Assembly: GCA_002292025.1 (NCBI GenBank)
Contig: DBBC01000108.1
Coordinates: forward strand, 1 to 34,617
Source: Firmicutes bacterium UBA994
Lineage (GTDB): Bacteria > Bacillota > UBA994
Reading direction: 5' to 3'
Length of the DNA stretch: 34,617 nt
Numbering within the stretch: position 1 is the stretch's first letter; every line of letters begins with the position of its first letter. The translations under genes were made by a program, and so were the position numbers. Shown here piece by piece: positions 1,685 through 24,851 of this stretch. A model generated the notes under the pieces. The model had not been told where the DNA came from. It searched no databases and saw only the letters and a list, made by a program, of their open reading frames with translations.

Positions 1685-1747
1685 GTGGCGGGACTTTGCT
1701 TGAACATATTCTTAACTCCTTCATATTGCGGTGAAAATGAGGGCTGC

Positions 1748-8626: not shown

Positions 8627-8639
8627 TAATGTGTCAATC

Positions 8640-8812
8640 AAATACGCTGTGGGGTGCCCCTAGGCTTTAGGGGTTAAAAGGGAATCAGGTGTAAATCCTG
8701 AGCGGTCCCGCCACTGTAACGGGTAGTGCCTGCATTAACCACTGTTCGCGCGGCGAATGGGAAGGAGCTAGGCGCGTCACTCCCGTAGTCAGGAAACCTG
8801 CCCCAGAGACAA
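8640..8812 (+). promoter_or_regulatory. cobalamin (AdoCbl/B12) riboswitch aptamer
   Basis: Conserved core AAGGGAATCAGGTGTAAATCCTGAGCGGTCCCGCCACTGTAACGGG (8668-8715) and B12 box AGTCAGGAAACCTGCC (8787-8802). Sits upstream of a BtuF/C/D-type transporter. Confidence 0.88.
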
Positions 8813-8871
8813 GACGCCGTCCTTCGGTCGAAAGGACTAGGTCAAAGCTTTGTACTTAGCTTTGCATCAAA

Positions 8872-9885: not shown

Positions 9886-10916
9886 CTAAGGGAACTGCCC
9901 CCATGCGCCAGTGGCCGGTAAACGCATGCTTGGGTCTGCTGCTGGTGCTGGCGGTGTTTCTCAGCTTGCTGGTGGGAGCGGTAGACATTGCTCCCTCCAG
10001 CCTGCTTCACACCTTGCAGGAGTTAGTGACGGCCCCAGCGAACGCTTGGTCAGTGGACGCAGTCATCGTTTGGCGGCTAAGATTGCCCAGAGCGTTGCTG
10101 GCAGCAGCGGTCGGTGCAGCCTTGGCCATGGCCGGAGCTGTGATGCAAGGCCTCTTGCACAATAGCTTAGCTGACTCTTTTGTGCTGGGCGTGTCATCGG
10201 GTGCCAGTCTTGGCGCGGCGTTGGCCATGCTGCTTGGGCTGCGCTTCACGTTTCTCGGTCTCGGTGCAGTAACGCCGCTGGCTTTTGTAGGAGCGATACT
10301 GGCCCTAGTAGCGGTACTAATGATTGCGCGGCGGGTGGCGGGCAAATCAACCGCGGGGCTACTGCTGGCCGGTATTGCTATGAACAGTGCTCTGTCCGCC
10401 ATTGTGTCTTTCTTAGTGCTGCTTAGCCGTGAGCGCATCAACCCCCTCTTGTTCTGGCTGATGGGCGGTTTCTCGGGTCGAGGATGGAATCACTTTTTGT
10501 TGATGCTGCCATATGTACTACTTGGCTTTGCCATTGCCTACAGCTATTACCGTTACCTCACAGCGATTAGCCTTGGTGACGCCGCCGCGCATCACTTGGG
10601 GGTAGATGTGGGTAAGGTGCGTCTGTTGCTTTTAGCGGTAGCCGCGCTCCTGACCGCAGCCGCGGTATCTGTCAGCGGCATGATTGGTTTCGTTGGCTTG
10701 ATGACGCCGCATTTCGCCCGCATGCTGGTGGGGCAACACTATCGGCGCCTATTGCCTACGTCTGCTGTGTGCGGTGCCGTTTTTCTTACCTTCGCCGACT
10801 TAGTGGCCCGCGTAGTGATGCGCCCGCAGGAGCTCCCAGTTGGGATTATTACTGCTCTGTGCGGCGGCCCCTTCTTCTTGTGGCTTCTGGCCCGCCAGCG
10901 TCAGGAGATGGTATGA
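9876..10916 (+). CDS. FecCD-family ABC permease (BtuC-like)
   Basis: 346 aa, ~9-10 TM. FecCD motifs (RLPRALLAAAVGAALAMAGAVMQ, GPFFLWLL). Overlaps the neighbouring genes at both ends. Confidence 0.85.
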   Translation: MALAKGTAPMRQWPVNACLGLLLVLAVFLSLLVGAVDIAPSSLLHTLQELVTAPANAWSVDAVIVWRLRLPRALLAAAVGAALAMAGAVMQGLLHNSLADSFVLGVSSGASLGAALAMLLGLRFTFLGLGAVTPLAFVGAILALVAVLMIARRVAGKSTAGLLLAGIAMNSALSAIVSFLVLLSRERINPLLFWLMGGFSGRGWNHFLLMLPYVLLGFAIAYSYYRYLTAISLGDAAAHHLGVDVGKVRLLLLAVAALLTAAAVSVSGMIGFVGLMTPHFARMLVGQHYRRLLPTSAVCGAVFLTFADLVARVVMRPQELPVGIITALCGGPFFLWLLARQRQEMV

Positions 10917-11704
10917 TGTTCGCCCTGAGTATAGAAAACGTGTCTTTTCGTTTTGTTCGGCCTGTACTTAGCGGGGTCTTTGCAGATTTTGCGCCGGGCA
11001 CTTTTTCCGGTATCCTAGGCGCGAACGGCGTTGGCAAATCGACACTTATTAAAATTATCGGTCGTTGGCTGCCTATGCAGGAGGGTTCTATCCGCGTCTA
11101 TAATCGCCCTCTCGGCACATTCTCACAGCGCGACTTAGCCCGCCATATCGCTGTCGTTCCGCAGGAGCAGACCTATGTCACGGATCTAACTGTGCGCGAA
11201 ATGGTAGAGCTTGGTCGTATCCCTCATCAAGGTCTGCTTGCCCACCTGACTACGGCTGATCAAAGCGCGATAAACCATGCGCTCGTGCAGACAGGGCTGC
11301 AGGAAATAGCAGAGCGGAGCTTCTCCACGCTTAGCGGCGGGGAACGGCAACGCGTGCGCGTGGCTACGGCACTAGCCCAAGCAGCCGACATTTTAATCCT
11401 CGACGAGCCTACGACTCACCTGGACATCAGATACCAAGTAGAATTACTGACGCTGCTTGCTCAGCTGGTAACTAAAGGATACACGGTGATAACTGTGCTC
11501 CATGACATTAACCTAGCGGCACTCTTTTGCGATCACCTAGTGCTGCTCGCTGACGGGCGCGTACTGCGTTCCGGTCCACCCGCTGAGGTCATAACGCGGG
11601 AAGCTATCTTGAAAGCCTACCAGTGTGACGTTACCGTGCTTTCGCACCCGACGCAGGGTGTCCCCCAGATTTCGCTGACGCGCCAGCAGTTGCCCCATAT
11701 GTAA
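10913..11704 (+). CDS. ABC transporter ATP-binding protein (BtuD/FepC-like)
   Basis: Walker A GANGVGKST, signature LSGGERQR, Walker B ILILDEP. The ATG at 10913 overlaps the permease stop (ATGA). The track ORF from 10769 is an overlapping upstream extension. Confidence 0.88.
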   Translation: MMFALSIENVSFRFVRPVLSGVFADFAPGTFSGILGANGVGKSTLIKIIGRWLPMQEGSIRVYNRPLGTFSQRDLARHIAVVPQEQTYVTDLTVREMVELGRIPHQGLLAHLTTADQSAINHALVQTGLQEIAERSFSTLSGGERQRVRVATALAQAADILILDEPTTHLDIRYQVELLTLLAQLVTKGYTVITVLHDINLAALFCDHLVLLADGRVLRSGPPAEVITREAILKAYQCDVTVLSHPTQGVPQISLTRQQLPHM

Positions 11705-14221: not shown

Positions 14222-16327
14222 CTATTGCCATATTCTGCTTCCCACGGTGTAGAGAACGAGCAGTACCATAAGCATCACGGCTGCCACCACCAGCGACCCC
14301 AGCGTAACGTTTTGCGGATTCCACATCTCCGGTCGTTGTCCCGCTGCACCGTTGTCGCCCGCCGCTTCATTACGTATTCTGCGCGTTATATCTTCTGCCG
14401 CTTGACCGACGCTGTCGTATGCCTGCCCAAGCCCCTGTTCCAGCCCGCGGGCCTGTTCAACTACTAAGCTCGTTGTGCGCTGAGCTGTCTCGTAACCCTC
14501 ACCCAGCATATCGTCGAACTTCTTAACTCTCCTAAACACGCTATGGGATACACTGCCGCCACGGTCATATAGGTCGCATAGACCGCCCTCCACACGCGTG
14601 ACGTAGTTGCAGCAAAATCTGAGAAATCCTTGGGTCACAGGACGATACAGGAGCGCCTCGACAGAAAGCCAGCAGGGTACCGGTCCTGTGCCAAACCTAT
14701 AACGGCGCGCCGCCAAGAACACCACCACCCCTAAGGCAACAGGGATAACTCCCGCGATGTAGGAACTCGCTGTCCATAATTTGACTGCGCCCAGCTGCTC
14801 TGCCATCATGCCAAAATCTACTGCCGTGGCTGTGGCGCTCCTAGCCATCATGTTAATCACACGCTCGGGGAACAGTCCGATGGCTACGATACCTCCGGCA
14901 AACGCGGCAAGCACTGCCGGTATGATAGACCCCTCTTTTGCCGCGGAAAAACCTCGTCCGCGATAGCTGCCCAAAAATACCCCGTAATAGAGCTTAATCA
15001 GGTAGGTGACAGTGAGAACGGAACCCAGCATAAACAACGGCCCCACCCAAGCTAGTACCGGTTCGCCGTGATAAGCCGCAGCCTTGTCTATGCCGTACTG
15101 AATGAGTTTCTTGCTGCCAAATCCGCTTAAACCTGGTACTCCTATTACGGACAGAGTGGCAACTAAAGTGGCTAGCGCTGTCAGAGGCAATACCTTGGCC
15201 ATGCCTCCTAACTTACTAAGTTCCAGCGACCCGGTTCTGAGATAGACAGACCCCATCATTATAAACAGCCCCGCCTTGAGCACGGCGTGGTTAAAGGCAT
15301 GAAACACGGCGGCAGTATACGGTAGTCCGCCCTTAGCGCCCAAATATGCGGCGCAACCTACCGCCAGCATCACATAGCCCATCTGGCTGATACTCGAATA
15401 AGCCAAGAGACGCTTTACATTATTTTGCAGCAAAGCCATCACTGCTCCGCCGAGGATGGTCAGTAAGGCCACCCAGATAAGCGCAAAGCCAATATTAATA
15501 GGCAGCGCCGACACCTCTTGGCTAGGCAGCGATGAGGACAGCGTGACAGCAAGCACGCTCAGTATGCCGTAAAAACCCGTCTTCCCCATCACCCCCGCGA
15601 GCAATGCAGTGGCGGGAGCGGGGGCTACCGGATAGGCGTGCGGTATCCAGACGTGCAATGGAATCAAACCAGCCTTCACACCAAACCCAATGAGAAAGAT
15701 GATGGCAATCAAATACGGATTGACCGCTCCCCCCTGCAGTCTGTCCAACACCGGCACAATGTCCGCGGTGCCGGCCGACCACACCAACAGGAGGATGCCA
15801 AACAACAGCACCAGCCCACCGGTCACTCCCATATAGAGATAACTGTCACCTGCCCGCATGGCCTCGTCATCTTCATCGTGAATGACGAGGGGATAGGCCG
15901 CAAAGGTCATAATCTCAAAAAACAGGAAAAGCGTAAAGTAGTCACCGGCCAGAAAAACACCCAAGCAACCGCTGAGGCTAACCAAGAGGAAGCTCGAAAA
16001 ACGCGTCTGAGAATGGCTGCTACGCATATAGCTCATGGCATAAAGGCTGACTAACGCCCCAATCCCGGCCGAAATCAGCGCAAACAGTGCACCCAAATGC
16101 GTAGGGCGAAAACTCAGGCCGAAATCTACAAGGTGAATGAAAATCAGCTCTAGTCTGTGTCCGGGGTTTACGTGATACACCGCCGCCACTGCGCCCAGTG
16201 TCAAAAACGCCGTGCTGACCACCACGACCTCCTGTAAGCGCCGATGCGCACGCAACAAGAAGACCAGCGCCGCACCACAGAGCGGCAAGAGAATTGGCAC
16301 TAGCAACAACAGGTCTAACGAAAGCAC
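14222..16327 (-). CDS. Mrp/complex-I antiporter-like subunit (NuoL/MrpA/MrpD family) with ~220-aa C-terminal extension
   Basis: 701 aa. Conserved channel motifs FFEIMTFAAY, GVKAGLIPLHVWIPHAYPVAPAPATALLAGVMGKTG and HAFNHAVLKAGLF. The C-terminus has extra TMs, a long charged helix and a terminal TM. Confidence 0.85.
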   Translation of the reverse strand: MLSLDLLLLVPILLPLCGAALVFLLRAHRRLQEVVVVSTAFLTLGAVAAVYHVNPGHRLELIFIHLVDFGLSFRPTHLGALFALISAGIGALVSLYAMSYMRSSHSQTRFSSFLLVSLSGCLGVFLAGDYFTLFLFFEIMTFAAYPLVIHDEDDEAMRAGDSYLYMGVTGGLVLLFGILLLVWSAGTADIVPVLDRLQGGAVNPYLIAIIFLIGFGVKAGLIPLHVWIPHAYPVAPAPATALLAGVMGKTGFYGILSVLAVTLSSSLPSQEVSALPINIGFALIWVALLTILGGAVMALLQNNVKRLLAYSSISQMGYVMLAVGCAAYLGAKGGLPYTAAVFHAFNHAVLKAGLFIMMGSVYLRTGSLELSKLGGMAKVLPLTALATLVATLSVIGVPGLSGFGSKKLIQYGIDKAAAYHGEPVLAWVGPLFMLGSVLTVTYLIKLYYGVFLGSYRGRGFSAAKEGSIIPAVLAAFAGGIVAIGLFPERVINMMARSATATAVDFGMMAEQLGAVKLWTASSYIAGVIPVALGVVVFLAARRYRFGTGPVPCWLSVEALLYRPVTQGFLRFCCNYVTRVEGGLCDLYDRGGSVSHSVFRRVKKFDDMLGEGYETAQRTTSLVVEQARGLEQGLGQAYDSVGQAAEDITRRIRNEAAGDNGAAGQRPEMWNPQNVTLGSLVVAAVMLMVLLVLYTVGSRIWQ

Positions 16328-16343
16328 AGGTATGGCCGCCTCC

Positions 16344-17828
16344 CTATCTCGCCGTTGTAAAGAGGGAGTAGGTGGCCCTCTCTGCCAGCTCTAGCGCGAA
16401 GTTGTAAGGCAACAAGTCAATAAGCAAAATCACAGCGGCCAGCGCAACCATAGGGGCCAGCATAGCTAAAGGAAGGTTGTCCCTCCGGGTTTTTGCTTGT
16501 GCGGCGTGCGCTACGCCTTCACCAAAAAAGGCATTTTGTATCAGCGGGAAGTAGTAAATAAAGTTCATCAGCGAGCTGAGAAGTAGCAGCAAGACATATG
16601 CTACGCTGCCGGCATCAAGTGCCCCCAGCGCCAATTCCCATTTGGAAACAAACCCGACCAGCGGAGGGACACCCACCATCGACAGAGCCGCCACAGTGAA
16701 TACAGACATGGTGATGGGCATTTTTCTACCTAACCCTACCCACTCCGATACCCGTCGCTTGCCGGTACTGTAGATAATCGCTCCTGCGGCTAAGAACAAG
16801 CTGGATTTCATAAAGGCATGAGCAAAAATGTGGAAGATGGCTCCGATCAAGGCGCGCTCAGTAAGTAACCCGACGCCCAGCAAAATATACCCCATTTGTC
16901 CCACGCTTGAGTAGGCTAACCTGCGTTTGATGTCGTCTTGCGTGATGGCAACTGCCGACCCTAGGAATATAGTTATGGCGGCAAGCAATTGTAACTGGTC
17001 CCTCCACATGACGATCTGCATCATCTCTAGACCAAATATCTGGTAAGTGACACGTATTAACCCAAATGCCCCCGTTTTCAACATCAGACCGGAGAGCAGC
17101 GCGCTTGCCGGGCTAGGGGCGACAGGATGTGCCTCCGGCAGCCAGATATGCAAAGGAACCATGCCGGCTTTGATGCCAAAGCCAACGAGAAAGCCAAGAA
17201 ACGCTAGAAATGTCAAAGCGGTAATTTCTAGCGGGAGCCCTCCGGGAGTGAACGACACGCGCCCGGCTTGTTGAAACACGGCGATAACCGAGAATAGCAG
17301 CGACAGCCCCCCGATGATTGTAAGAATAAGGTATCTGTAGCCGGCTCGCATGGCGACCGCAGTTTCTTCGTGTATGATCAGGACATATGCTGAAAGCGAC
17401 ATCACCTCAAAGAATAAGAAAAAAGTGATCAAGTCGCCGCTCAGGATCACACCCATAGCCCCCGCTAGGGTAAGAACTGAGAATGGGTAGTATCTATTCT
17501 TAGCATGCTCCTTGACCATATAGGCGGTGCTATAAATTGTCACCAACAGCCATACAAAGGAAACCACTGTCGCTACAAAGAACCCTAGGTAGTCCAAGCG
17601 GAAAGAAACTCCTAGCGGCGGCAAGAGTTGCGGGAAATTAGCCACAATCGTAGTATCGGCCATAATGGTGCGATAGTGCTGCACTACTAGCAAGAATGAA
17701 GCTAGGGCTGCCATCACAGAAAGGCTATTGCGTAAACGCCATGAGCGACGTTCCACAGCGTAGATAACAGCGGCAAGTAAGAGCGGCACCATGACGGGCA
17801 AAATCACTGCGACAGACGTAGTTTGCAT
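16344..17828 (-). CDS. Mrp antiporter-like subunit D (NuoM/N family)
   Basis: 494 aa. FFEVMSLSAY, GIKAGMVPLHIWLPEAHPVAPSPASALLSGLMLKTG, HIFAHAFMKSSLF. Confidence 0.85.
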   Translation of the reverse strand: MQTTSVAVILPVMVPLLLAAVIYAVERRSWRLRNSLSVMAALASFLLVVQHYRTIMADTTIVANFPQLLPPLGVSFRLDYLGFFVATVVSFVWLLVTIYSTAYMVKEHAKNRYYPFSVLTLAGAMGVILSGDLITFFLFFEVMSLSAYVLIIHEETAVAMRAGYRYLILTIIGGLSLLFSVIAVFQQAGRVSFTPGGLPLEITALTFLAFLGFLVGFGIKAGMVPLHIWLPEAHPVAPSPASALLSGLMLKTGAFGLIRVTYQIFGLEMMQIVMWRDQLQLLAAITIFLGSAVAITQDDIKRRLAYSSVGQMGYILLGVGLLTERALIGAIFHIFAHAFMKSSLFLAAGAIIYSTGKRRVSEWVGLGRKMPITMSVFTVAALSMVGVPPLVGFVSKWELALGALDAGSVAYVLLLLLSSLMNFIYYFPLIQNAFFGEGVAHAAQAKTRRDNLPLAMLAPMVALAAVILLIDLLPYNFALELAERATYSLFTTAR

Positions 17829-17843
17829 AATAAGGCCTCCAGT

Positions 17844-19310
17844 TTATCTCACGAAAAGAAGCGCGGTTTGTTGTACAAGCGGTACCATAAGCGAAGGAAA
17901 CAACCCAAAGAAGAACACCATCAAAGCAAGAACTAGGATGGGCGCAAGCATCGCCAAACGTGGCTCTACGGCTTCCTTCTCGCTGTCTTTACCAAAGAAG
18001 GCAGAGATGATGATGGGAAAGTAGTAGGCCGCGTTGAGCAGGCTGCTGACCAGAATAAGCACCGCAAAGACAAGCATATCGGCATCAAGTGCCCCTAGCG
18101 CGATGTATAACTTAGAGATAAAGCCCGCCGTCCCGGGAATACCTACCATAGACATAGCGCCGACAGTAAACGCCGCGAAAGTGAGCGGCATCTTGCGCCC
18201 GAGACCATTAAACTGCGACAGCTTCTTGATACCGGTCTGGTGGATAATTACGCCTGCGGCTAAGAACAACAAAGACTTCATTACGGCATGATTTAGAATA
18301 TGAAGAACTCCGCCTTCGATGGCGCGCGGGCTGAATAGGCCGAACCCCAAGAAGATATAACCCACCTGCGTGACTGTGGAAAACGCCAGCAAACGCTTGG
18401 CATTGTCTTGTACCATGGCAAAGACTGAGCCAACCATCAGCGCTCCTGTCGACAGTGCCAAGAAGAGATGCCGTATCGGTAAGAGCGCAAAGATCTCCAG
18501 CCCCAACGCTAGGTACGCGATTCTCATCAGGGCAATAATATAAACCTTAACAACTAGGCCGCTGAGGAGCGCGCTGGAAGCTGTCGGGGCATTAGAGTGC
18601 GCGTCCGGCAGCCACACGTGCATAGGGAAAAGCGCTGCCTTAACGCCAAAGCCTACAACCATTAAGCCTATCGATGTCAAGAGGTTTAAGGGATACTGCT
18701 CTGCGGTCACGATAAGTGTTGTGCGAATATATTCCATGTTAAGGTGTCCGGTGATCATAAATATTAGGGCTATACTGAACAGAACTCCACCTGAACCTAA
18801 CGCGCTCAGGACAAGGTAGCGAAAGCTCGCTTCCACGCTTTCTTTCGTACCTTTGATGGCAATGATGGCGATGGCGGCCAGCGAGCTAATCTCGATAAAC
18901 ACAAAAAGATTAAACAAGTCCCCGGCCATTACCATGCCTTGCATCGCGGCCGTTAACAGCAAGATAAGTGTAAAGTAGACGCCGTTATGCCTCACTTCGC
19001 GCGGACCGTAGACCGCAAACCAGGAGATAATCAAAGCGACCATAGCCAACACTAGCGAGGAGTAGGCCGCGAAAACGTCAACCAACACCACTATACCATA
19101 CGGAGCCGCCCACCCGCCTACAGGATAGTGAAGTGTGCCTTCCGCTAACACGCGCATTGTCATGCTAAGAGACATGATAAAAGCCGCCGCTCCTGCACCT
19201 AGGAAAACCGCGTTGACCACTCCCTGGCGTTTGCCCAGAAGCGGAATAATAAAAGCAGCTAAGAGCAACACCACTACTATAAGAACGGGCGCATGTCCAA
19301 GATTAAGCAT
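17844..19310 (-). CDS. Mrp antiporter-like subunit D (NuoM/N family)
   Basis: 488 aa. FIEISSLAAI, GVKAALFPMHVWLPDAHSNAPTASSALLSGLVVK, HILNHAVMKSLLF. Confidence 0.85.
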   Translation of the reverse strand: MLNLGHAPVLIVVVLLLAAFIIPLLGKRQGVVNAVFLGAGAAAFIMSLSMTMRVLAEGTLHYPVGGWAAPYGIVVLVDVFAAYSSLVLAMVALIISWFAVYGPREVRHNGVYFTLILLLTAAMQGMVMAGDLFNLFVFIEISSLAAIAIIAIKGTKESVEASFRYLVLSALGSGGVLFSIALIFMITGHLNMEYIRTTLIVTAEQYPLNLLTSIGLMVVGFGVKAALFPMHVWLPDAHSNAPTASSALLSGLVVKVYIIALMRIAYLALGLEIFALLPIRHLFLALSTGALMVGSVFAMVQDNAKRLLAFSTVTQVGYIFLGFGLFSPRAIEGGVLHILNHAVMKSLLFLAAGVIIHQTGIKKLSQFNGLGRKMPLTFAAFTVGAMSMVGIPGTAGFISKLYIALGALDADMLVFAVLILVSSLLNAAYYFPIIISAFFGKDSEKEAVEPRLAMLAPILVLALMVFFFGLFPSLMVPLVQQTALLFVR

Positions 19311-19674
19311 GTCGTTTACTCCTCAAGGCGATGATCTTATCCGCGTCAAGCGTGCCGTACTGCTTGTGCAAGAGCACGACCAGTGCCAAGGCAAACGCGG
19401 TGAAGCTTACAGAGATAACTATGCCTGTCAGGATAAGCGCGGAGGGAACAGGGTTGACGTATTGCATGACACCCTCCCTGAGGATAGGCGCCTGGCCGCC
19501 GTGTATATACCCAATGGCGACGAAGAACAAGAACAGGGACGTATCCATAATGTTCATGCCCATTATCTTCTTGAGCAGATTGTTGTGCGTAAGCATGGTA
19601 TGAAAGCCAATAATAAAAAGAATTACTGCAACTAAATAATATATGTTCATGTACAGGCGCTCAATGATGACCAT
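19303..19674 (-). CDS. Mrp subunit C (MnhC/NuoK-like)
   Basis: 123 aa, 3 TM. NPVPSALILTGIVISVSFTAFALAL motif. Overlaps both neighbours. Confidence 0.8.
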   Translation of the reverse strand: MVIIERLYMNIYYLVAVILFIIGFHTMLTHNNLLKKIMGMNIMDTSLFLFFVAIGYIHGGQAPILREGVMQYVNPVPSALILTGIVISVSFTAFALALVVLLHKQYGTLDADKIIALRSKRHA

Positions 19675-20116
19675 CCGGTTCCGCGCCTCCTTCCAATAGC
19701 TCTTGGAACAGCTTAAGCACGGTGCCCGCCACCTTAGCGCCTATGCCTAGCGTCACCAGCAGAATCATGCCGCTACTCCACAATCGCCCAGGCTCTCCAG
19801 TCGGAAACACACCCTGATTCGTGAGGAAATGCCGTCCGAAGACAATGCCTACTAAACCTGCCATCACATATACCAGCACACCGCCAACCTCCAGCCAGAG
19901 GGACGTTTCGTGCTTAAGGCGGTGTTTCTGTGCGGTAAACCTATATACGAGGCTGTACAAGATAAAGCTTGCGCCGATAATCGTCCCACCGGAAAAGCCC
20001 CCACCAGGGGACAAGTGGCCGTGAAAGAGAATATAGGCCCCAAAGAGCTGCGTCGCGGGGATAAGAATGCGGCTAAGCATCTCAAGAATCATGTCATTCA
20101 TGTTCATAGCCTCCAT
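19661..20116 (-). CDS. Mrp subunit B (MnhB domain)
   Basis: LFHGHLSPGGGFSGGTI motif characteristic of MnhB. The start is ambiguous (several ATGs at 20092-20116). Confidence 0.8.
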   Translation of the reverse strand: MEAMNMNDMILEMLSRILIPATQLFGAYILFHGHLSPGGGFSGGTIIGASFILYSLVYRFTAQKHRLKHETSLWLEVGGVLVYVMAGLVGIVFGRHFLTNQGVFPTGEPGRLWSSGMILLVTLGIGAKVAGTVLKLFQELLEGGAEPDGHH

Positions 20117-20375
20117 AGAACGCCGCCGTCACAGCAATGACGGCTACAAACAACACCGTGGCCTCACCTAAGGTGTCATAAGCGCGGTAGTCGATGATAA
20201 TTGCGGCAATGGTGTTAATGGCCCCGGTGTCACGAGCGCTATCCCGCAAATACTTTTGCATGACCCCTTGGTGCGCCGGAGCTGTCACATCCCCATACAA
20301 GGGCATCTCTGCGACCATTAACACCAAGAGCACTCCAATCCCAAGTAGCACCATAAGCGTCAATGTTTTCCTCAT
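20094..20375 (-). CDS. small MnhB-related membrane protein (MbhE-like; corresponds to part of MrpA C-terminus)
   Basis: 93 aa. IIIDYRAYDTLGEATVLF motif (the DYRG.DTLGE signature of the MnhB-related family). Confidence 0.65.
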   Translation of the reverse strand: MRKTLTLMVLLGIGVLLVLMVAEMPLYGDVTAPAHQGVMQKYLRDSARDTGAINTIAAIIIDYRAYDTLGEATVLFVAVIAVTAAFYGGYEHE

Positions 20376-20614
20376 TCTTCATGCCTTCCCGTGCGGCTGA
20401 TGGCGGCAAGAAACAAGAGCGAGGTAGCTCCGGCACCAATAGCGGCCTCGGTAATGGCCACGTCGGGGGAGTGTAGCTGTTGCCAGATGATAGACATGAC
20501 CATGCTATAGGCGCCGAAAATAACAGTCGCACTGAGTAAATCCTTGGTGCGAGCTACGACTACAGCACAAACCACCAAAAACAATAACAAGAGGACATTA
20601 ATTGCCGCTAGCAT
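20372..20614 (-). CDS. DUF4040-type membrane protein (MbhD-like; MrpA C-terminal domain homologue)
   Basis: 80 aa, 3 TM. SATVIFGAYSMVMSIIWQQLHSPDVAITEAAIGAG resembles DUF4040. Confidence 0.6.
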   Translation of the reverse strand: MLAAINVLLLLFLVVCAVVVARTKDLLSATVIFGAYSMVMSIIWQQLHSPDVAITEAAIGAGATSLLFLAAISRTGRHEE

Positions 20615-20906
20615 GTTTGTGACCCTCTCGCGTACGATAGACGGCTCTGGCCATATAATGAGCAGCGGCGGGCGTGGTAACCCATAAAAAGATAATCAAT
20701 AAGATGACCTTGAGCACAAGGTACATACTTCCACCCTCGAAAAAGGTCAAGCCTACTAGGACCAACCCCGCGCCTAAGGTGTCGCACTTGGTCGTGGCGT
20801 GCATGCGGGTGAGCGCGTCTGGGAAGCGCAATAAGCCAACGGTACCCGCGGTAAAGAAGAATATCCCCCCCACTAGGAACGCAGTGCCGATTACAGAGGC
20901 CAGCAT
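20598..20906 (-). CDS. Mrp subunit G (MnhG)
   Basis: GTVGLLRFPDALTRMHATTKCDTLGAGL is the MnhG/PhaG signature. Confidence 0.85.
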   Translation of the reverse strand: MLASVIGTAFLVGGIFFFTAGTVGLLRFPDALTRMHATTKCDTLGAGLVLVGLTFFEGGSMYLVLKVILLIIFLWVTTPAAAHYMARAVYRTREGHKHASGN

Positions 20907-20919
20907 CTATACATCCCCC

Positions 20920-21189
20920 TCATACCATTGTTCCTCTCTCAATATAGCGCGCCACGCCAATGGTCAATAAAAAGCTAATGAGTGAGTACACCATCGCCAC
21001 ATCTAAGTAGTACGGGACCTCCTGAAAGATGTAGCCGATCAGCATCAGCACGACTACAGTCTTTGTGCCGATAACGTTAATGGCCACTACCCTGTCCGCT
21101 GGCGTGGGCCCCACTATCGCCCGGTACAAAGACGCAAACGTCAAGAGCATCAACCACAAACATGTAACTAAGAGCGCCGTCAGTTCCAT
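20920..21189 (-). CDS. Mrp subunit F (MnhF)
   Basis: 89 aa, 3 TM. LYRAIVGPTPADRVVAINVIGTK motif. Confidence 0.75.
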   Translation of the reverse strand: MELTALLVTCLWLMLLTFASLYRAIVGPTPADRVVAINVIGTKTVVVLMLIGYIFQEVPYYLDVAMVYSLISFLLTIGVARYIERGTMV

Positions 21190-21701
21190 TAGTGTCGCCT
21201 CTCAATCTCTACTAACAGGTTCTCGATATGCCAATCCCTAAGTCCTGCCGCGGCACCATCCATAAGCGCATGCACGATAAACTCTCCTTGCACCGGCGCC
21301 TCTACTGAGATAGTGCCGGGCGTCAGCGTAATGCTGTTAGCTAAAAAGACGCGCATCATCGGCTCTTTAAGCTTACTCTCGTGCGCAACGAACTGCGGGT
21401 TTAAGGCTATGCGGCGGGCAAATGCCAGCTCAGCCACCTGTACCGAAGCCTTAAACACGTCAATGATTAAGTATCCGGCATACGTCAGCCACGCGGAGAG
21501 GTTGCCGCGGTTGATATGCAAGTCATTGGCAAAGCTGAGTAACAAGTCACGATTGACATAGGTCACTAAAGCGGCCACTAACCAGCCCGTAATCAGCGAC
21601 TGGATGTCAGCGCTTTGTGCGAACAGCATCCAGAGCACGAACAAGGCCAGAGTCCAACCAATCAGGCGCATATAACGGGACATCGCTTTCTCCCCCCACA
21701 A
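21189..21701 (-). CDS. Mrp subunit E (MnhE)
   Basis: 170 aa. Two N-terminal TMs and the ITLTPGTISVE...IVHAL motif. The real start is possibly ATG 21683 (GGGGAGAAAGCG upstream). Confidence 0.75.
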   Translation of the reverse strand: MWGEKAMSRYMRLIGWTLALFVLWMLFAQSADIQSLITGWLVAALVTYVNRDLLLSFANDLHINRGNLSAWLTYAGYLIIDVFKASVQVAELAFARRIALNPQFVAHESKLKEPMMRVFLANSITLTPGTISVEAPVQGEFIVHALMDGAAAGLRDWHIENLLVEIERRH

Positions 21702-21764: not shown

Positions 21765-22610
21765 TCACTTGCTTGGCGCCTTCTCCAAGGCATCGATCAC
21801 CGCTTGCACAAAGCCTTCACTGGAACCGGTGGCGCCCGATACTACATCAACTTCAGGGTCCTGTTCTGCTATTACCGCCTGCGCCAGAGCCGCAAAGGCC
21901 GCATTCGCGTATTCCGGCGTGTCTTGGTGGGCCACGACCCGCACGCTCTCCACTCGGCCCCCCCTGACGGTGACTGATACGCGAATAGGGCCTAGTAACC
22001 CGACCCCTTGACCTAGATACTCGCCATCCGGAATCGAGGCGAGGTCACGCGTAAATCGGTCTACAGGAATAGGGGCCGCTTCGCCCAGTACATGCTGCTG
22101 AAATAAGGCCAATGCCTCCCTGACCCCGGCCGTAACACCGCGCGTTGAAAGCGTTGCATTAGTGATCACGTCCACATCCACGCCCACAACGAGCTGGTCG
22201 CGAGCGGTTTTACCCGTAAACTGCCGCAAAAACGCGGGTGCTTCCACCTTGTCGCCAATGCCCGGTGTCTCGCGGTGTGCGGTTATGCGTATGCCTGCCG
22301 CCGCACCCGACGCATCCACCGCGACCAACAAGCTAATCGGGCCGGCATAGCCGCTGCCTGCACTTTGCATTATCGCCCCGATAAGCTTACCGTCCCTAGT
22401 GGCGAGAAAGTAGGTGACATCATCACGTATGGTTTCCTCGAACTTGTCCGCCGCAGGCAAAAGCTCACCCAACGCGCGCTGCAATTCTGCTTGTTTTCTC
22501 TCCGAGATCACTTCGCTGGTAACGGAGTAGGTCGCGGCTAACGCCGCCCCCGCTATGGAGCAGATGAGCGCGAGCGTCACGCTAAGCCTGAATACATCTT
22601 TCACGTACAA
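21765..22610 (-). CDS. membrane-anchored protein with two FMN-binding (FMN_bind) domains; N-terminal half RnfG/NqrC-like
   Basis: N-terminal TM (LSVTLALICSIAGAALAA). RnfG-like core SGYAGPISLLVAVD...ITAHRETPGIGDKV. Flavinylation-type motifs DVITNATLS (22152-22163 = TNAT) and DVVSGATGSS (21828-21839 = SGAT). TTG 22610 or GTG 22604 start. Confidence 0.75.
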   Translation of the reverse strand: MYVKDVFRLSVTLALICSIAGAALAATYSVTSEVISERKQAELQRALGELLPAADKFEETIRDDVTYFLATRDGKLIGAIMQSAGSGYAGPISLLVAVDASGAAAGIRITAHRETPGIGDKVEAPAFLRQFTGKTARDQLVVGVDVDVITNATLSTRGVTAGVREALALFQQHVLGEAAPIPVDRFTRDLASIPDGEYLGQGVGLLGPIRVSVTVRGGRVESVRVVAHQDTPEYANAAFAALAQAVIAEQDPEVDVVSGATGSSEGFVQAVIDALEKAPSK

Positions 22611-22784: not shown

Positions 22785-23459
22785 TCAAATGCTGCGAAAA
22801 ATAAGGTATAGCCCTACCCCAACAAACAATAGCCCGGCGACATATGCGCCAAAGTCCCAGTACCTGCTGAAGCCGCGCCAAGCTCGCAGCGCCCCTACCG
22901 CACCGCCCATAAGCAGCAAAGGCAGCCCCTGCCCTAAGCCAAAAGCAAACAACAGCAGTCCCCCTGCGTAAACTTGCCTAGAGGTCGCCGCGACACTGAC
23001 TATAATGCCAAGCACCGGACTCACGCAGGGCGAGGCCGCCAGCCCAAATGCCAGCCCCACCAAAAAGGCCCCAAGGAAACCGTGTGCTCGCACGGGCATC
23101 TTAGTTATGCTCTTAAAGGGCAGTTGTACCAACTGCATTAAGCTAAGTCCCATCAGCAGCAACACTGCCCCGAGCAGCATGGGGGCTACACTAGAAGTGA
23201 TGCCGATTATGCCGCCTAGAAGTGCCGCCGCCAGCCCCAGCGCAGTAAACGCTGTAGAAAGCCCAAGTACTAGGCTCAGCACTAGCAGTAAGCTGCGCCG
23301 CGTTTTAATGCCGCCACTGACGCCCACATACCCTAAAACTATAGGCATCATGGCGATAATGCAAGGGGATAGACTGGTCAGCACACCGGCGCCAAATGAA
23401 GCCAGCACTGCGAGGCCAAGGTTTCCGACCAGTATGCTCTGTAGCGTTTCCATCGTCAT
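22785..23459 (-). CDS. ccdA: cytochrome c biogenesis / thiol-disulfide electron transporter CcdA (DsbD-core family)
   Basis: 224 aa, 6 TM. The two conserved membrane Cys motifs LSPCIIAMMP and ASPCVSPVLG. The ATG overlaps the upstream stop (ATGA). Confidence 0.85.
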   Translation of the reverse strand: MTMETLQSILVGNLGLAVLASFGAGVLTSLSPCIIAMMPIVLGYVGVSGGIKTRRSLLLVLSLVLGLSTAFTALGLAAALLGGIIGITSSVAPMLLGAVLLLMGLSLMQLVQLPFKSITKMPVRAHGFLGAFLVGLAFGLAASPCVSPVLGIIVSVAATSRQVYAGGLLLFAFGLGQGLPLLLMGGAVGALRAWRGFSRYWDFGAYVAGLLFVGVGLYLIFRSI

Positions 23460-23869
23460 CGTGGATTTATCCCCGCAGCAATAAACCGCCGCAGTTCCTC
23501 CTTAGACATGGCCCCCACCTCATGCCGCTCACGCCCATTGGCAGTGACCACAACAAAATGGGGGATAGACCGAAGATTAAAGCGACGCCCAAGTTCTGTG
23601 GCTTGGTCTGACTTAATGTCCGCGACAATAAAGGTGACTTGTGTGCCGAACTCGGCCTTAAGCTCCCGCACCGCGGGATATATTACTACGCAGGAGCGTC
23701 ACGTATCGGAGGTGAACATGACAAAGACCGGGCTCTGCTGTGCCCGAGCTTGCTCAAAAGCTGTGAGCGGCGCGAGAGACTTAAGGTCATCTCCACCGCT
23801 CGGTCTGGCAAGGACCCAAGCCACAACACCCACGAGCAAGATTAGTAGTAGAGATACGCTACGCTTCAT
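23456..23869 (-). CDS. signal-anchored thioredoxin-fold protein with in-frame TGA (23699-23701) at the first active-site position (U-R-S-C); predicted selenoprotein (alternative: nonsense pseudogene)
   Basis: ATG 23869 has GGAGG 8 nt upstream. Translation: MKRSVSLLLILLVGVVAWVLA...SPVFVMFTSDT-TGA-RSCVVIYPAVRELKAEFGTQVTFIVADIKSD...IPHFVVV. This is one frame, 138 codons. The track shows only the C-terminal 71 aa. Confidence 0.65.
23662..23698 (-). promoter_or_regulatory. candidate bacterial SECIS hairpin immediately 3' of the UGA
   Basis: mRNA GCUCCUGC (23697-23690) can pair with GCGGGAGC (23669-23662): 8 bp, 1 G-U. A mutually exclusive apical hairpin CCCGC-GGU-GCGGG lies at 23677-23665, with a GGU loop ~27-29 nt after the UGA. 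Confidence 0.45.
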
Positions 23870-24851
23870 CTTCGTTGCCTCCCCAAGTATCCGCCAAAAT
23901 ACTTTGCTCTAAACGTTTATCCCAAGCCGACCAGCGCTCACCCAAAGAAATTGTATCGACAATAATCTTCTCGACTTGAGCTAACCTGCTGCTCGTATAG
24001 TCGGCAAGATGCAGCGCCACCGCATTAGCTGTTTTTGGTTCCTCAGGCGACCCCCACTCGCGTTGGCCATGATGACTAAGGACAAGGTGTTTCAGCTCAT
24101 CGCCTAAGGCAGGCGGGAATGCTGGCAGGCGCTCGGTCAGACTGCCAACAAGCTCCGCACCCAGCACCACGTGACCGATGAGTTTGCCTCTATCCGTAAT
24201 ATCAAAACCAAAAGCTCGCGGCTCGTACTCCTCCGTCTTGGCCGCGTCGTGCAAGATAGCCCCCACGATCAGCAAGTCGCGGTTAAGACGCGCGCCCTGC
24301 ACTTGCACCATGCTCTCGACGTAAGCTATGACTTCCAAGGTGTGCATAAGGAGCCCACCTACATGAGCGTGGTGTACGTCGCGACCGGCAGGCGCCTGCT
24401 GATAGGCGTGCTTTACCCCGGGCGAAGAAAAGTACAAGGTTAGTAAGTCTCGTAAGCAGGGCGTCTTAATACCAGCCATAACCTCTTCCAGTTCGCGCCA
24501 CATCTCGGCTATAGGGCGCGGGGACGGCGCGGAAAAATCAAGGGCGTCAAAATCGGCAACGTTAGCCCGCGCAACTTCCTCGATGTAGATTTGCTTTTCC
24601 CCGCGATAATCTTGGACTCGTCCTGACACCAGCACGATGTCGTTTTTGCGGTAGGAATTATCGGTAGCCAGCGCCTCGTTCCAAGCCACGGCCGATACTC
24701 TGCCGGTACGGTCGCCAAGGGACAACACCATGCCGCAAGCAGGCACACCGTTTTTATTGTAGTTAATAAGCCGCTTGTCAATGACAAAGAAGTGGCTCTT
24801 TACCTGCGCGCCGACTGTCAGATCTTTGGCGTATGTCTTCTTCAAGTGCAA
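23859..24851 (-). CDS. yhaM: OB-fold + HD-domain 3'-5' exoribonuclease, YhaM-like
   Basis: N-terminal OB fold (GMVLSLGDRTGRVSAVAWNEA). HD motifs HHAHVGGLLMHTLEV and GAILHDAAK. The likely start is TTG 24845 (GAAGGGG 8 nt upstream) rather than TTG 24851. Confidence 0.7.
   Translation of the reverse strand: MHLKKTYAKDLTVGAQVKSHFFVIDKRLINYNKNGVPACGMVLSLGDRTGRVSAVAWNEALATDNSYRKNDIVLVSGRVQDYRGEKQIYIEEVARANVADFDALDFSAPSPRPIAEMWRELEEVMAGIKTPCLRDLLTLYFSSPGVKHAYQQAPAGRDVHHAHVGGLLMHTLEVIAYVESMVQVQGARLNRDLLIVGAILHDAAKTEEYEPRAFGFDITDRGKLIGHVVLGAELVGSLTERLPAFPPALGDELKHLVLSHHGQREWGSPEEPKTANAVALHLADYTSSRLAQVEKIIVDTISLGERWSAWDKRLEQSILADTWGGNEDEA

What the first reader, a model, noticed from the sequence alone, without database searches (positions are those of the whole stretch)
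23456..23869. Hidden UxxC selenoprotein: thioredoxin with TGA in place of the nucleophilic Cys, translationally coupled to CcdA
The ORF track shows only a 71-aa fragment (23456-23671, GTG start) that would lack any active site. Reading the same frame upstream gives an ATG at 23869 with a GGAGG SD 8 nt upstream. That is followed by a signal-anchor (MKRSVSLLLILLVGVVAWVLA) and then ...SPVFVMFTSDT-[TGA 23699-23701]-RSCVVIYPAVRELKAEFG.... This aligns with the thioredoxin F.....WC..C...P active-site strand/helix. The TGA sits exactly at the first Cys of CxxC, and the resolving Cys is kept three residues later. The whole reading frame is 138 codons with no other interruption. Its real stop overlaps the ccdA ATG (ATGA at 23456-23459). 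TGA works as an ordinary stop elsewhere in the window (pyk, chrA, ccdA, this gene itself), so this is local recoding rather than a variant genetic code. Sec/Cys-interchangeable thioredoxin-fold selenoproteins are known in anaerobic Firmicutes and Deltaproteobacteria. An extracytoplasmic, membrane-anchored Sec-Trx fed by CcdA would be missed by standard annotation.
Basis: partly seen in the sequence, partly recalled or inferred. Interest (0 to 1): 0.8.

Follow-up and report, generated by a model that had tools for sequence, protein, structure and literature searches.

The report
Hidden selenocysteine thioredoxin next to CcdA
A small exported thioredoxin gene that looks cut in two by a stop codon is almost certainly a selenoprotein gene, because the TGA replaces the catalytic cysteine, is kept in 17 related sequences and is followed by a conserved RNA hairpin; it is a well-supported new member of a known class that annotation pipelines split in half.

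Summary
On the minus strand, 23869-23456 is one 138-codon frame with a single in-frame TGA (23701-23699). That codon aligns with the nucleophilic Cys of the thioredoxin CxxC motif. The gene's real stop overlaps the ccdA start.

Seventeen distinct orthologous sequences from MAGs and metagenomes all carry TGA at this column, while their terminal stop codons vary. Both halves of the gene are under purifying selection. Positional orthologues with Cys (TGT/TGC) also exist.

All TGA forms have a 6-bp hairpin with a GGU loop, 26 nt after the TGA (window 23678-23664). It is frozen at synonymous sites, shows compensatory changes, meets all four published bacterial SECIS criteria, and is absent from both Cys-form DNAs.

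TGA ends 10 of 31 other genes in the window, so the code is not reassigned. A published gene table lists Sec-biosynthesis genes and glycine reductase genes in the MAG that carries the closest orthologue.

The product is a membrane-anchored or secreted classical-fold thioredoxin with a UxxC site. It is probably kept reduced by the co-transcribed CcdA.

Verdict: interpretation supported. This is a new member of a known kind (UxxC thioredoxin-fold selenoproteins) that no curated NCBIfam model captures. Interest is moderate.

The parts
23456..23869 (-). Complete selenoprotein gene: 138 codons giving a 137-aa product with Sec (U) at residue 57. It is an exported or membrane-anchored thioredoxin with a U-R-S-C active site.
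   Evidence: sequence and frame; PF00085, 45.8 bits; alignment to solved thioredoxins; purifying selection on both halves.
23878..23882 (-). Shine-Dalgarno-like GGAGG, 8 nt upstream of the ATG. It lies inside the 3' end of the upstream yhaM-like gene.
   Evidence: Read directly. The consensus GGGAGGG is kept in orthologues.
23804..23869 (-). N-terminal signal anchor or signal peptide (MKRSVSLLLILLVGVVAWVLAR): basic N-terminus followed by a hydrophobic helix.
   Evidence: sequence. The AlphaFold2 model of Cys orthologue P0041 has a helix at residues 2-20 ahead of the Trx domain. Whether the segment is cleaved was not tested.
23699..23701 (-). Sec codon: in-frame TGA at the position of the nucleophilic Cys of CxxC.
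   Evidence: TGA in 17 of 17 distinct orthologues while terminal stops vary (TGA 10, TAA 6, TAG 1), and the following base is C in 15 of 17. Cys (TGT/TGC) in orthologues L006 and L025-L028.
23690..23692 (-). Resolving Cys (TGC) of the UxxC motif. Invariant in all orthologues, with free TGC/TGT variation.
   Evidence: invariant column C60; codons TGC 5, TGT 5.
23664..23678 (-). SECIS-type hairpin UCCCGC-GGU-GCGGGA: 6-bp stem, 3-nt GGU loop, 26 nt between the UGA and the loop, -9.7 kcal/mol.
   Evidence: consensus fold, 100% paired. (with the sister group: 96.9% paired, 3 of 6 pairs compensatory, 0 of 500 shuffles reach the covariation score). (synonymous sites frozen). (energy). Criteria taken from PMC13188914.
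23561..23563 (-). cis-Pro of the thioredoxin fold (…RSIPHF…). Invariant.
   Evidence: invariant P103; aligned with 'siP' of 3HXS.
22785..23459 (-). ccdA, the DsbD-type transmembrane thiol-disulfide electron transporter. Its ATG overlaps the Trx stop (ATGA). It has two 'PC' motifs (…LSPCIIAM…, …ASPCVSPV…).
   Evidence: sequence; PF02683, 85.2 bits. A CcdA gene lies immediately downstream of the Trx in every related locus long enough to show it, and is fused to it in L014.
23859..24851 (-). Upstream yhaM-like OB-fold/HD-domain gene whose 3' end overlaps the Trx start by 11 nt. Same operon position in Sec-type and Cys-type relatives.
   Evidence: NF010007 YhaM, 130.6 bits, below its 460 cutoff. 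Synteny.

Best explanation
Positions 23869-23456(-) encode one 137-residue selenoprotein: a classical-fold thioredoxin with an N-terminal signal anchor or signal peptide, whose nucleophilic active-site residue is selenocysteine (U-R-S-C). The proposed mechanism is as follows. During translation the ribosome reaches UGA at 23701-23699. The hairpin UCCCGC-GGU-GCGGGA lies 21-38 nt downstream, inside the codons for Y-P-A-V-R-E, and acts as a bacterial SECIS. It recruits SelB·GTP·Sec-tRNA(Sec), so Sec is inserted and translation does not terminate. The product is exported through the Sec translocon and stays anchored at, or is released near, the outer face of the membrane. There its selenenylsulfide is re-reduced by CcdA, which is translated from the overlapping downstream gene and takes electrons from cytoplasmic thioredoxin. 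The reduced UxxC protein then reduces extracytoplasmic disulfides or sulfenates on clients that are still unknown. What is shown: the gene structure, conservation of the TGA, Sec/Cys interchange among positional orthologues, the conserved and covarying hairpin, the thioredoxin fold, and the tight Trx-ccdA coupling. What is inferred: actual Sec insertion, SelB binding, topology, electron flow from CcdA, and the clients.
For: (1) The TGA sits at the catalytic Cys column of a bona fide Trx domain. (2) TGA occurs in 17 of 17 distinct orthologues from independent assemblies down to about 40% protein identity, while terminal stops vary between TGA, TAA and TAG. (3) Both halves are under purifying selection in one frame (dN/dS 0.12-0.35). 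The xxC between the TGA and any possible restart codon is conserved. (4) Cys-type positional orthologues exist (8 protein clusters). One of them (L025-L027) shares about 20 kb of synteny with the window. (5) RNAalifold independently predicts the hairpin. It is 100% paired in 10 close sequences and 96.9% in 16. Three of six pairs show compensatory changes, 0 of 500 shuffles reach the covariation score, and slid controls reach at most 74%. (6) Four of five hairpin codons are codon-monomorphic, against 0 of 29 control columns with a conserved amino acid (Fisher p = 1.1e-4). The single exception is a compensated CCU/CAG pair. (7) Both Cys-form DNAs lack the hairpin (-1.8 and -3.4 kcal/mol against -9.7). 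(8) All four published bSECIS criteria are met: loop of 3-9 nt, stem of 4-16 bp, G in the first two loop positions, 16-37 nt spacing, MFE at or below -7.5 (PMC13188914; measured). (9) TGA is a normal stop in 10 of 31 window genes. (10) MAG HKB212, which carries orthologue L001, is tabulated with 'Sec biosynthesis' genes DDT20_01332/01331 and with GrdA1/GrdA2/GrdB. GPS119 (L002) is tabulated with the Grd genes (bioRxiv 10.1101/2021.04.20.440570, Table S3; MAG identities). (11) CcdA partnership: ccdA starts within a few nucleotides of the Trx stop in every locus long enough to show it and is fused in frame in L014. The pneumococcal etrx2-ccdA2 operon is a characterised analogue (PMC3914529). (12) The model of a Cys orthologue (pLDDT 87) has an N-terminal helix followed by a classical Trx fold with CxxC at a helix N-terminus, and its best PDB neighbours are classical thioredoxins.
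Against: No selA, selB, selC or selD lies in the 34.6-kb window, and no tRNA gene at all was found. The Sec-machinery evidence comes from a relative's published table read by machine: the gene labels appear as 'SaeA/SaeB' and the GPS119 column is cut off. The hairpin is small and nearly invariant among close relatives, so the covariation rests on only a few independent events (perhaps three or four), and a shuffle test does not correct for relatedness. In the window itself the MFE fold pairs the hairpin's 3' arm with an upstream CUCCUGC instead. I consider this irrelevant during decoding, because that upstream arm would lie inside the ribosome when the UGA is in the A site, but that is an inference. 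No Rfam SECIS model matches. All sequences are metagenomic, and there is no 75Se or proteomic evidence. Topology and the CcdA electron path are not demonstrated for this family.
Confidence: 0.87

Rival explanations
1. Pseudogene: a thioredoxin gene inactivated by a nonsense mutation at the active-site codon, now decaying.
For: Gene callers treat it as two fragments. Database entries for orthologues are 74-76 aa stubs.
Against: The same TGA occurs in 17 of 17 distinct sequences. Both halves have dN/dS well below 1, an indel is in frame, and there are no further stops or frameshifts. The downstream RNA hairpin is conserved at synonymous sites.
Confidence: 0.01
2. Programmed UGA read-through or recoding that inserts something other than Sec (for example near-cognate Trp, Cys or Arg), with the hairpin acting as a generic read-through stimulator.
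For: The tools cannot show which amino acid is inserted. The UGA-C context (15 of 17) is known to be a leaky stop context (my own knowledge). Sec machinery was not verified in this genome.
Against: The position is the redox-active Cys and Cys orthologues exist, which is the classical Sec/Cys signature. The hairpin fits the bSECIS geometry, including a G-G/U loop start. The closest relative's MAG is tabulated with Sec-biosynthesis genes and the selenoprotein genes grdA and grdB. Inserting Trp, Arg or Gly would destroy the catalytic residue.
Confidence: 0.06
3. Two separate products: a 56-aa membrane peptide ending at the TGA, plus an independently initiated C-terminal fragment of about 71 aa.
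For: ORFs with start codons exist after the TGA (GTG at 23671 in the window; ATG 'MYPAV' in most orthologues).
Against: The restart codon is not conserved: Ile in the window, Ala in L012, Ser in L014. The residues between the TGA and the putative restart, including the invariant Cys at +3, are conserved. Met at that position is also present in full-length Cys forms, so it is a fold residue. A Trx fragment with no active site has no plausible function.
Confidence: 0.03
4. Lineage-wide reassignment of TGA to a sense codon.
For: Some uncultured bacterial lineages reassign UGA (my own knowledge).
Against: TGA terminates 10 of 31 confident genes in the window, including ccdA and this gene itself. 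No other gene in the window has an internal TGA that is not a gene boundary or antisense artefact.
Confidence: 0.01

Closest known systems
Sec-containing thioredoxin (Trx, PF00085, UxxC) of the catalogued prokaryotic selenoproteome (PMC13188914 Table 1; PMC1794560)
   Same: Same Pfam family above the gathering score. Same UxxC arrangement, with Sec replacing the nucleophilic Cys. Same classical ~105-aa fold. bSECIS immediately downstream in the coding region.
   Different: This protein has an N-terminal signal anchor or signal peptide and is operonically coupled, and in one case fused, to CcdA. The active site is (D/S)(T/G)-U-x-x-C with no Trp before U and no Gly-Pro dipeptide. It scores far below NCBIfam thioredoxin equivalog cutoffs (44.5 against 96.8). 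I could not fetch catalogued Sec-Trx sequences to measure identity.
[quoted passage not shown]
   Same: Thioredoxin-fold, UxxC oxidoreductases, by their names presumably extracytoplasmic. PF13098 is also hit here (37.7 bits against a gathering score of 27).
   Different: In the 2006 survey that family was listed in Deltaproteobacteria (PMC1794560). Membership could not be tested because no reference sequence was available. The best structural neighbours here are classical Trx, not TlpA/ResA/DsbA types.
CcdA-Etrx extracellular reducing pathways of Streptococcus pneumoniae (PMC3914529), and by my own knowledge CcdA-ResA/StoA of Bacillus subtilis
   Same: A CcdA gene co-transcribed with a surface-exposed thioredoxin-family protein (etrx2-ccdA2 is bicistronic). 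Electrons are proposed to flow from cytoplasmic Trx to CcdA to the extracytoplasmic Trx. This is the likely way the present system works.
   Different: Etrx, ResA and StoA use Cys, are larger TlpA/ResA-type domains, and Etrx proteins are lipoproteins. Here the fold is minimal Trx, the anchor is a TM helix or signal peptide, and the nucleophile is Sec. ResA and StoA NCBIfam models are far below cutoff (24.5 against 170; 16.6 against 210). No MsrAB or cytochrome c maturation gene lies nearby.
DsbD (fusion of a TM electron transporter with a periplasmic Trx-like domain) and the selenoprotein TsoB (rhodanese/DsbD fusion-like, NF045694)
   Same: L014 is a natural in-frame fusion of the Sec-Trx with CcdA, analogous to the Trx-like domains fused to the DsbD membrane core. 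Both the CcdA and the Trx show weak similarity to the TsoB model (62.2 and 17.5-24.7 bits).
   Different: All scores are far below the TsoB cutoff (805). There is no rhodanese domain. In the window and most relatives the two proteins are separate genes. In TsoB the motif is UxxxxU.
Bacteroides fragilis TrxP (PDB 3HXS/3HYP), an exported thioredoxin
   Same: Best sequence match among solved structures (E = 2e-9). Described as an exported thioredoxin (PMC6158253). Classical fold.
   Different: TrxP has WCGPC with Cys and sits in an operon with doxDA, not ccdA. Identity is only about 26%.

Membership tests
Bacterial selenoprotein gene (Sec-UGA plus bSECIS) | In-frame UGA conserved among orthologues within an otherwise intact, selected reading frame | tested here: met
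   17 of 17 distinct sequences carry TGA. dN/dS is 0.12-0.35 on both sides.
Bacterial selenoprotein gene (Sec-UGA plus bSECIS) | Homologues carrying Cys at the UGA column (Sec/Cys pair) | tested here: met
   L006 has TGT and L025-L028 have TGC at the same column. Eight Cys-type protein clusters were found.
Bacterial selenoprotein gene (Sec-UGA plus bSECIS) | bSECIS criterion (i): apical loop of 3-9 nt and upper stem of 4-16 bp (PMC13188914, Fig. 2 legend) | tested here: met
   Loop GGU (3 nt) and 6-bp stem. In sister-group sequences L020 and L023 the loop is 9 nt.
Bacterial selenoprotein gene (Sec-UGA plus bSECIS) | bSECIS criterion (ii): a G in the first two loop positions, usually followed by G or U | tested here: met
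   The loop is G-G-U in 15 sequences and C-G-U-… in L020 and L023.
Bacterial selenoprotein gene (Sec-UGA plus bSECIS) | bSECIS criterion (iii): 16-37 nt between the UGA and the apical loop | tested here: met
   26 nt (alignment columns 4-29), or 23 nt in L020 and L023.
Bacterial selenoprotein gene (Sec-UGA plus bSECIS) | bSECIS criterion (iv): MFE at or below -7.5 kcal/mol | tested here: met
   -9.7 kcal/mol in the window and -10.0 in L010. The Cys forms give -1.8 and -3.4.
Bacterial selenoprotein gene (Sec-UGA plus bSECIS) | selA, selB, selD and tRNA-Sec present in the same genome | not testable with these tools
Indirect support: the relative HKB212 is tabulated with 'Sec biosynthesis' genes and grdA/grdB.
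Bacterial selenoprotein gene (Sec-UGA plus bSECIS) | Selenium actually incorporated at the UGA position | not testable with these tools
   Needs 75Se labelling or mass spectrometry.
Thioredoxin family (Pfam PF00085) | Score above the Pfam gathering threshold | tested here: met
   45.8 bits against 23.5, residues 37-131.
Thioredoxin family (Pfam PF00085) | CxxC-type dyad at the N-terminus of helix 1, a cis-Pro loop, and a β-α-β-α-β-β-α core | tested here: met
   Alignment to 3HXS. The model of Cys orthologue P0041 has pLDDT 87. Foldseek TM is about 0.8 to classical Trx. The model is of an orthologue 41% identical to the window protein, not of the window protein itself.
Curated NCBIfam families, including named selenoprotein models (TsoB NF045694, Trx7/PDZ NF041199) and thioredoxin equivalogs | Score above the curated cutoff of any model | tested here: not met
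   The best is TIGR01068 at 44.5 against 96.8. TsoB scores 17.5-24.7 against 805, and trx7_PDZ 15.2 against 300.
TlpA/ResA/StoA/Etrx-type extracytoplasmic thiol-disulfide oxidoreductases | Sequence or fold membership in the ResA/TlpA type | tested here: not met
   ResA NF002854 scores 24.5 against 170 and StoA 16.6 against 210. The top 50 Foldseek matches are classical thioredoxins. It can still work like these proteins.
CcdA/DsbD-type membrane electron transporter (the neighbouring gene) | DsbD_TM domain with the two conserved membrane-embedded Cys | tested here: met
   PF02683 at 85.2 bits. The motifs LSPCIIAM and ASPCVSPV are visible in the translation.

The most novel reading that the evidence does not exclude
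This is a previously uncatalogued selenoprotein family: an extracytoplasmic, membrane-tethered Sec-thioredoxin that is the dedicated partner of a CcdA transporter. It would be the first CcdA/DsbD-type pathway whose acceptor is a selenenylsulfide. It occurs in at least two divergent clades with different SECIS sequences, is occasionally fused to CcdA, and has switched between Sec and Cys among positional orthologues. Its closest members come from hyperalkaline, highly reducing serpentinite springs, where a selenol might give a kinetic or redox-potential advantage on the cell surface.
Probability: 0.35. Interest if true: 0.55.

Novelty: new member of a known kind. Interest (0 to 1): 0.4.

Why it matters
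It corrects an annotation error. In public records the orthologues are 74-76 aa stubs named 'hypothetical protein' or 'thioredoxin family protein', and no NCBIfam model would rescue them.

It adds a CcdA-coupled, exported Sec-thioredoxin to the selenoproteome of uncultured Firmicutes (SRB2/UBA994 and Peptococcaceae-like MAGs). This implies that selenium-dependent redox chemistry may operate on the outer face of the membrane in these organisms.

Positional orthologues with Sec or Cys, with or without the hairpin, form a clean natural series for studying how a SECIS is built inside coding sequence. Here the RNA constraint visibly fixes the peptide Y-P-A-V-R-E/D. They also give a natural series for comparing Sec and Cys in a CcdA-driven pathway.

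It does not change any general principle, because UxxC thioredoxin-fold selenoproteins are the commonest kind known.

Tried and rejected
1. The word-indexed protein search with the U-to-C read-through protein found nothing. The profile version and the exhaustive HMMER search with the post-TGA 80 aa were needed.
The structure was therefore predicted for the Cys orthologue P0041, not for the window protein.
3. An exact look-up of the window's CcdA found no record, so the source genome could not be identified or searched for selA, selB, selC or selD.
4. I first took the 9-bp stem from the window's MFE fold as the SECIS candidate. I rejected it because it exists only in the window/L002 clade and is not conserved.
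5. Rfam found no SECIS family at gathering or at E up to 10.
6. ARAGORN found no tRNA in the window or in loci L001-L014.
7. A scan for other in-frame-TGA genes in the window found only gene boundaries and antisense ORFs.
8. The NPL-UPA2 genome paper (PMC6305446) does not mention selenium or thioredoxin. A search for 'UBA994' returned unrelated Nitrospinota papers.
9. I had recalled that B. fragilis TrxP is encoded next to a CcdA-like gene. The paper I could read places it with doxDA instead, so I dropped that claim.
10. The pseudogene, split-gene and codon-reassignment rivals were rejected on the evidence given above.
Full report
OBSERVATION

The minus strand between 23869 and 23456 is a single reading frame of 138 codons, interrupted once by TGA at 23701-23699. 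The ORF lister reports only the two halves: a 56-aa ORF (23699-23869) and a 71-aa GTG-start ORF (23456-23671). The ATG at 23869 follows GGAGG (23882-23878) after an 8-nt spacer. The terminal TGA overlaps the ATG of the next gene as ATGA.

With Cys in place of the stop, the product passes the Pfam gathering score for Thioredoxin (PF00085, 45.8 bits, residues 37-131, spanning the TGA). The next gene is a DsbD_TM/CcdA protein (85.2 bits). A phmmer alignment to PDB 3HXS places the TGA column on the first Cys of W-C-G-P-C and aligns the cis-Pro.

NOT A CODE CHANGE, NOT AN ACCIDENT

The 31 confident genes in the window end in TAG 11, TGA 10 and TAA 10 times. No other in-frame TGA in the window separates two plausible coding halves, apart from gene boundaries and antisense ORFs.

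Scanning species-representative genomes with the CcdA protein gave three related MAG loci with CcdA 74-83% identical. All three carry the thioredoxin gene upstream with TGA at the same column, and one has an in-frame 3-nt indel.

An exhaustive HMMER search with the 80 residues after the TGA returned mainly 66-76 aa proteins that begin just after the active site. That is the signature of gene callers truncating at a TGA. It also returned one longer protein with G-C-R-S-C. Fetching the DNA behind those proteins, plus a metagenome scan, gave 14 distinct sequences of the close family. Every one has TGA in the motif (F/I/V)-M-(F/V/I)-T-x-D-(T/G)-U-x-x-C.

Three members of a more distant sister group (motif F-Y-S/G-x-F/L-U-x-x-C) have the TGA at the same column as well. 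Across the 17 distinct sequences the internal stop is always TGA, while the terminal stop is TGA 10, TAA 6 and TAG 1 times. The base after the internal TGA is C in 15 of 17.

Nei-Gojobori estimates on unsaturated pairs give dN/dS of 0.12-0.18 upstream of the TGA and 0.18-0.35 downstream. Both halves are therefore translated in this frame and kept by selection. This excludes a pseudogene.

A two-polypeptide reading is also unlikely. The residues between the TGA and any restart codon are conserved, including the invariant Cys at +3. The candidate restart Met is replaced by Ile, Ala or Ser in three members.

SEC/CYS INTERCHANGE

A profile search found eight Cys-type protein clusters of 104-137 aa, named 'thioredoxin family protein [Peptococcaceae bacterium]' where named. 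It also found the truncated Sec-type stubs, one of them named 'hypothetical protein DDT37_00379'.

The Cys-type locus L025-L027 (GCA_018334055.1) is syntenic with the window over about 20 kb: TldD/PmbA pair, decarboxylase, NUDIX, Kbl-like, YhaM-like, Trx, CcdA, FMN_bind and Mrp cluster (compared). So Sec forms and Cys forms are positional orthologues.

THE RNA ELEMENT

The window's own MFE fold is dominated by a 9-bp stem starting 2 nt after the TGA. That stem exists only in the window/L002 clade.

What all TGA forms share is a smaller hairpin, UCCCGC-GGU-GCGGGA, at positions 24-38 counted from the U of UGA (window 23678-23664). RNAalifold predicts exactly this helix as the consensus, with and without the sister group.

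On 10 close sequences it is 100% paired, with one compensatory C-G to U-A change in L010. On 16 sequences including the sister group it is 96.9% paired, and three of six pairs carry compensatory changes (U-A/G-C at 24-38, C-G/U-A at 27-35 and at 29-33). None of 500 shuffles reaches the observed covariation score or percentage paired, and slid controls reach at most 74% paired. The number of independent events is small, and the shuffle control does not correct for relatedness.

The strongest evidence is therefore the synonymous-site test. Among the 10 close sequences, every one of 29 control columns with a conserved degenerate amino acid uses 2-5 different codons. The five hairpin codons use TAT, CCC, GCG, GTG and CGG throughout, and the only exception is the compensated CCT/CAG pair in L010. 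Fisher's exact test gives p = 1.1e-4. These codons are not strongly preferred in the window's genes, with fractions of 0.15-0.44.

Both Cys-form DNAs have different codons there and no hairpin: -1.8 and -3.4 kcal/mol against -9.7 and -10.0. At the protein level the Cys forms have drifted to YP(V/L/I)V(Q/E), whereas the Sec forms are held at YPAV(R/Q)(E/D).

The hairpin meets all four criteria of the published bacterial SECIS consensus: a 3-9 nt loop with a 4-16 bp upper stem, a G in the first two loop positions followed by G or U, 16-37 nt from the UGA to the loop, and MFE at or below -7.5 kcal/mol (PMC13188914). The values here are a GGU loop, 6 bp, 26 nt and -9.7 kcal/mol. [quoted passage not shown]

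In the window, the competing 9-bp stem uses positions 5-13 after the UGA. Those positions should lie inside the ribosomal mRNA channel when the UGA is in the A site, which would leave the conserved hairpin free to form. This is an inference from general knowledge of the ribosome footprint.

SEC MACHINERY

The window has no tRNA gene and no selA, selB or selD. Its genome could not be reached.

The closest relatives L001 and L002 are MAGs HKB212 and GPS119. [quoted passage not shown]

Supplementary Table S3 of the preprint version lists by locus tag, for HKB212 and GPS119, GrdA1/GrdA2/GrdB/GrdC/GrdD (DDT20_01364-01369; DDT37_00574-00570). For HKB212 it also lists a 'Sec biosynthesis' row with DDT20_01332 and DDT20_01331. 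The gene labels are machine-read as 'SaeA/SaeB', which I take to be SelA/SelB, and the last column of that row is cut off. GrdA appearing as two adjacent tags may reflect the same split-at-TGA artefact.

This is genome-level, literature-based support that the lineage decodes Sec. It is not proof for the window's own organism.

WHAT THE PROTEIN IS AND HOW IT PROBABLY WORKS

The N-terminus (MKR followed by about 18 hydrophobic residues, then ARPSGGDD) is a signal anchor or a cleavable signal peptide. An AlphaFold2 model of the 137-aa Cys orthologue P0041 (pLDDT 87, pTM 0.75) has a helix at residues 2-20, a linker and a compact thioredoxin fold with CxxC at the N-terminus of helix 57-73. Its best structural neighbours are classical ~105-aa thioredoxins (target TM about 0.8), not TlpA/ResA-type proteins.

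ccdA lies immediately downstream of the thioredoxin gene in every related locus long enough to show it, and overlaps its stop as ATGA in the window. In L014 the two are fused in one frame, with the TGA and hairpin retained.

By analogy with the pneumococcal CcdA-Etrx pathways, which include a bicistronic etrx2-ccdA2 operon (PMC3914529), and with DsbD, I infer this path: cytoplasmic thioredoxin reduces CcdA, CcdA reduces the exported UxxC thioredoxin, and the latter reduces extracytoplasmic clients. The clients are unknown, and no msrAB or cytochrome c maturation gene is adjacent. The conserved neighbours are a YhaM-like OB/HD protein upstream, overlapping by 11 nt, and an FMN_bind (RnfG-like) protein and an Mrp-type antiporter cluster downstream.

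COMPARISON WITH KNOWN FAMILIES

[quoted passage not shown] It also includes DsbA-like, DsbG-like, TlpA-type, SaoT and other thioredoxin-like selenoproteins (PMC13188914 Table 1; PMC1794560). The kind is therefore known.

The present family passes only the generic Pfam Trx models. It reaches no curated NCBIfam cutoff, including those of the named selenoprotein models, and public annotation truncates it. I could not retrieve reference sequences of the catalogued Sec-Trx families, so I cannot exclude that earlier surveys counted members of this family under 'Trx'. I found no report of a CcdA-coupled Sec-thioredoxin in the papers I could search: 'CcdA' has no occurrence in the two selenoproteome reviews.

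VERDICT

This is a real, conserved selenoprotein gene with its own SECIS, a new member of a known kind. It has a neat operon context and a useful natural Sec/Cys series. Interest is moderate, at 0.4.

Noticed in passing
L014:297-1382 (logan SRR13727525_72004): Natural in-frame fusion of the Sec-thioredoxin (TGA and hairpin retained) to the CcdA membrane domain, giving a DsbD-like single polypeptide that would itself be a selenoprotein.
   Followed up: partly
L020:~50-455, L022:~1-471, L023:2300-2728: A more distant sister group of CcdA-coupled thioredoxins (motif FYS-x-F/L-U-x-x-C) also has TGA at the catalytic column. Its hairpin is in the same register but has a different sequence (GGAGCC…GGCUCU; 9-nt CGUGAUAAU-type loop, or a GGU loop in L022).
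   Followed up: partly
window 23661-23697 (-): In the window and L002 only, the codons R-S-C (CGC UCC UGC) can pair with the 3' arm of the SECIS hairpin. This forms a competing 9-bp stem that dominates the MFE fold (-15.9 against -9.7 kcal/mol). Whether it modulates Sec insertion is unknown.
   Followed up: partly
window 8635-8819 (+): Cobalamin riboswitch (Rfam RF00174, 106.5 bits) directly upstream of a BtuF-like binding protein, FecCD permease and ABC ATPase operon (8986-11704). Ordinary arrangement.
   Followed up: partly
window 23859-24851 (-) and related loci: A YhaM-like OB-fold/HD-domain gene overlaps the thioredoxin start by 11-14 nt. The order NUDIX, Kbl-like acyltransferase, YhaM-like, Trx, CcdA is conserved in both Sec-type and Cys-type relatives. 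No functional link between an RNase-like protein and the redox pair is evident.
   Followed up: no
window 21765-22610 (-) and 14222-21701 (-): An RnfG-like protein with two FMN_bind stretches follows ccdA. After it comes a large Mrp/Mbh-type antiporter-like cluster with three Proton_antipo_M subunits. Relatives have a GT4 glycosyltransferase and a small ORF inserted between ccdA and the FMN_bind gene, and the window lacks both.
   Followed up: no
window 3347-3925 and 3925-4443 (+); 4483-5160 (+): A pair of half-size chromate-transporter (CHR) genes with overlapping stop and start, followed by a 225-aa ORF with no Pfam match at E up to 1e-5.
   Followed up: no
window 2-1711 (-): An apparently ORF-free 1.7 kb at the left edge is in fact an ABC exporter gene (fused permease and ATPase) running off the window, so the ORF tool does not list it.
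   Followed up: yes
P0001 (5143 aa; representatives search): The top hit of the HMMER search is a 5143-residue protein with 17 separate stretches matching the thioredoxin C-terminal half. It appears to be a giant multi-Trx-repeat protein of unknown origin.
   Followed up: no
bioRxiv 10.1101/2021.04.20.440570, Table S3 (MAGs HKB212 and GPS119): grdA is listed as two adjacent locus tags ('GrdA1/GrdA2') in several MAGs. This may be the same artefact seen here, a selenoprotein gene split at its Sec-TGA by the annotation pipeline. NCBI titles GPS119 as 'candidate division NPL-UPA2', whereas the paper classes it as Firmicutes SRB2/UBA994.
   Followed up: no
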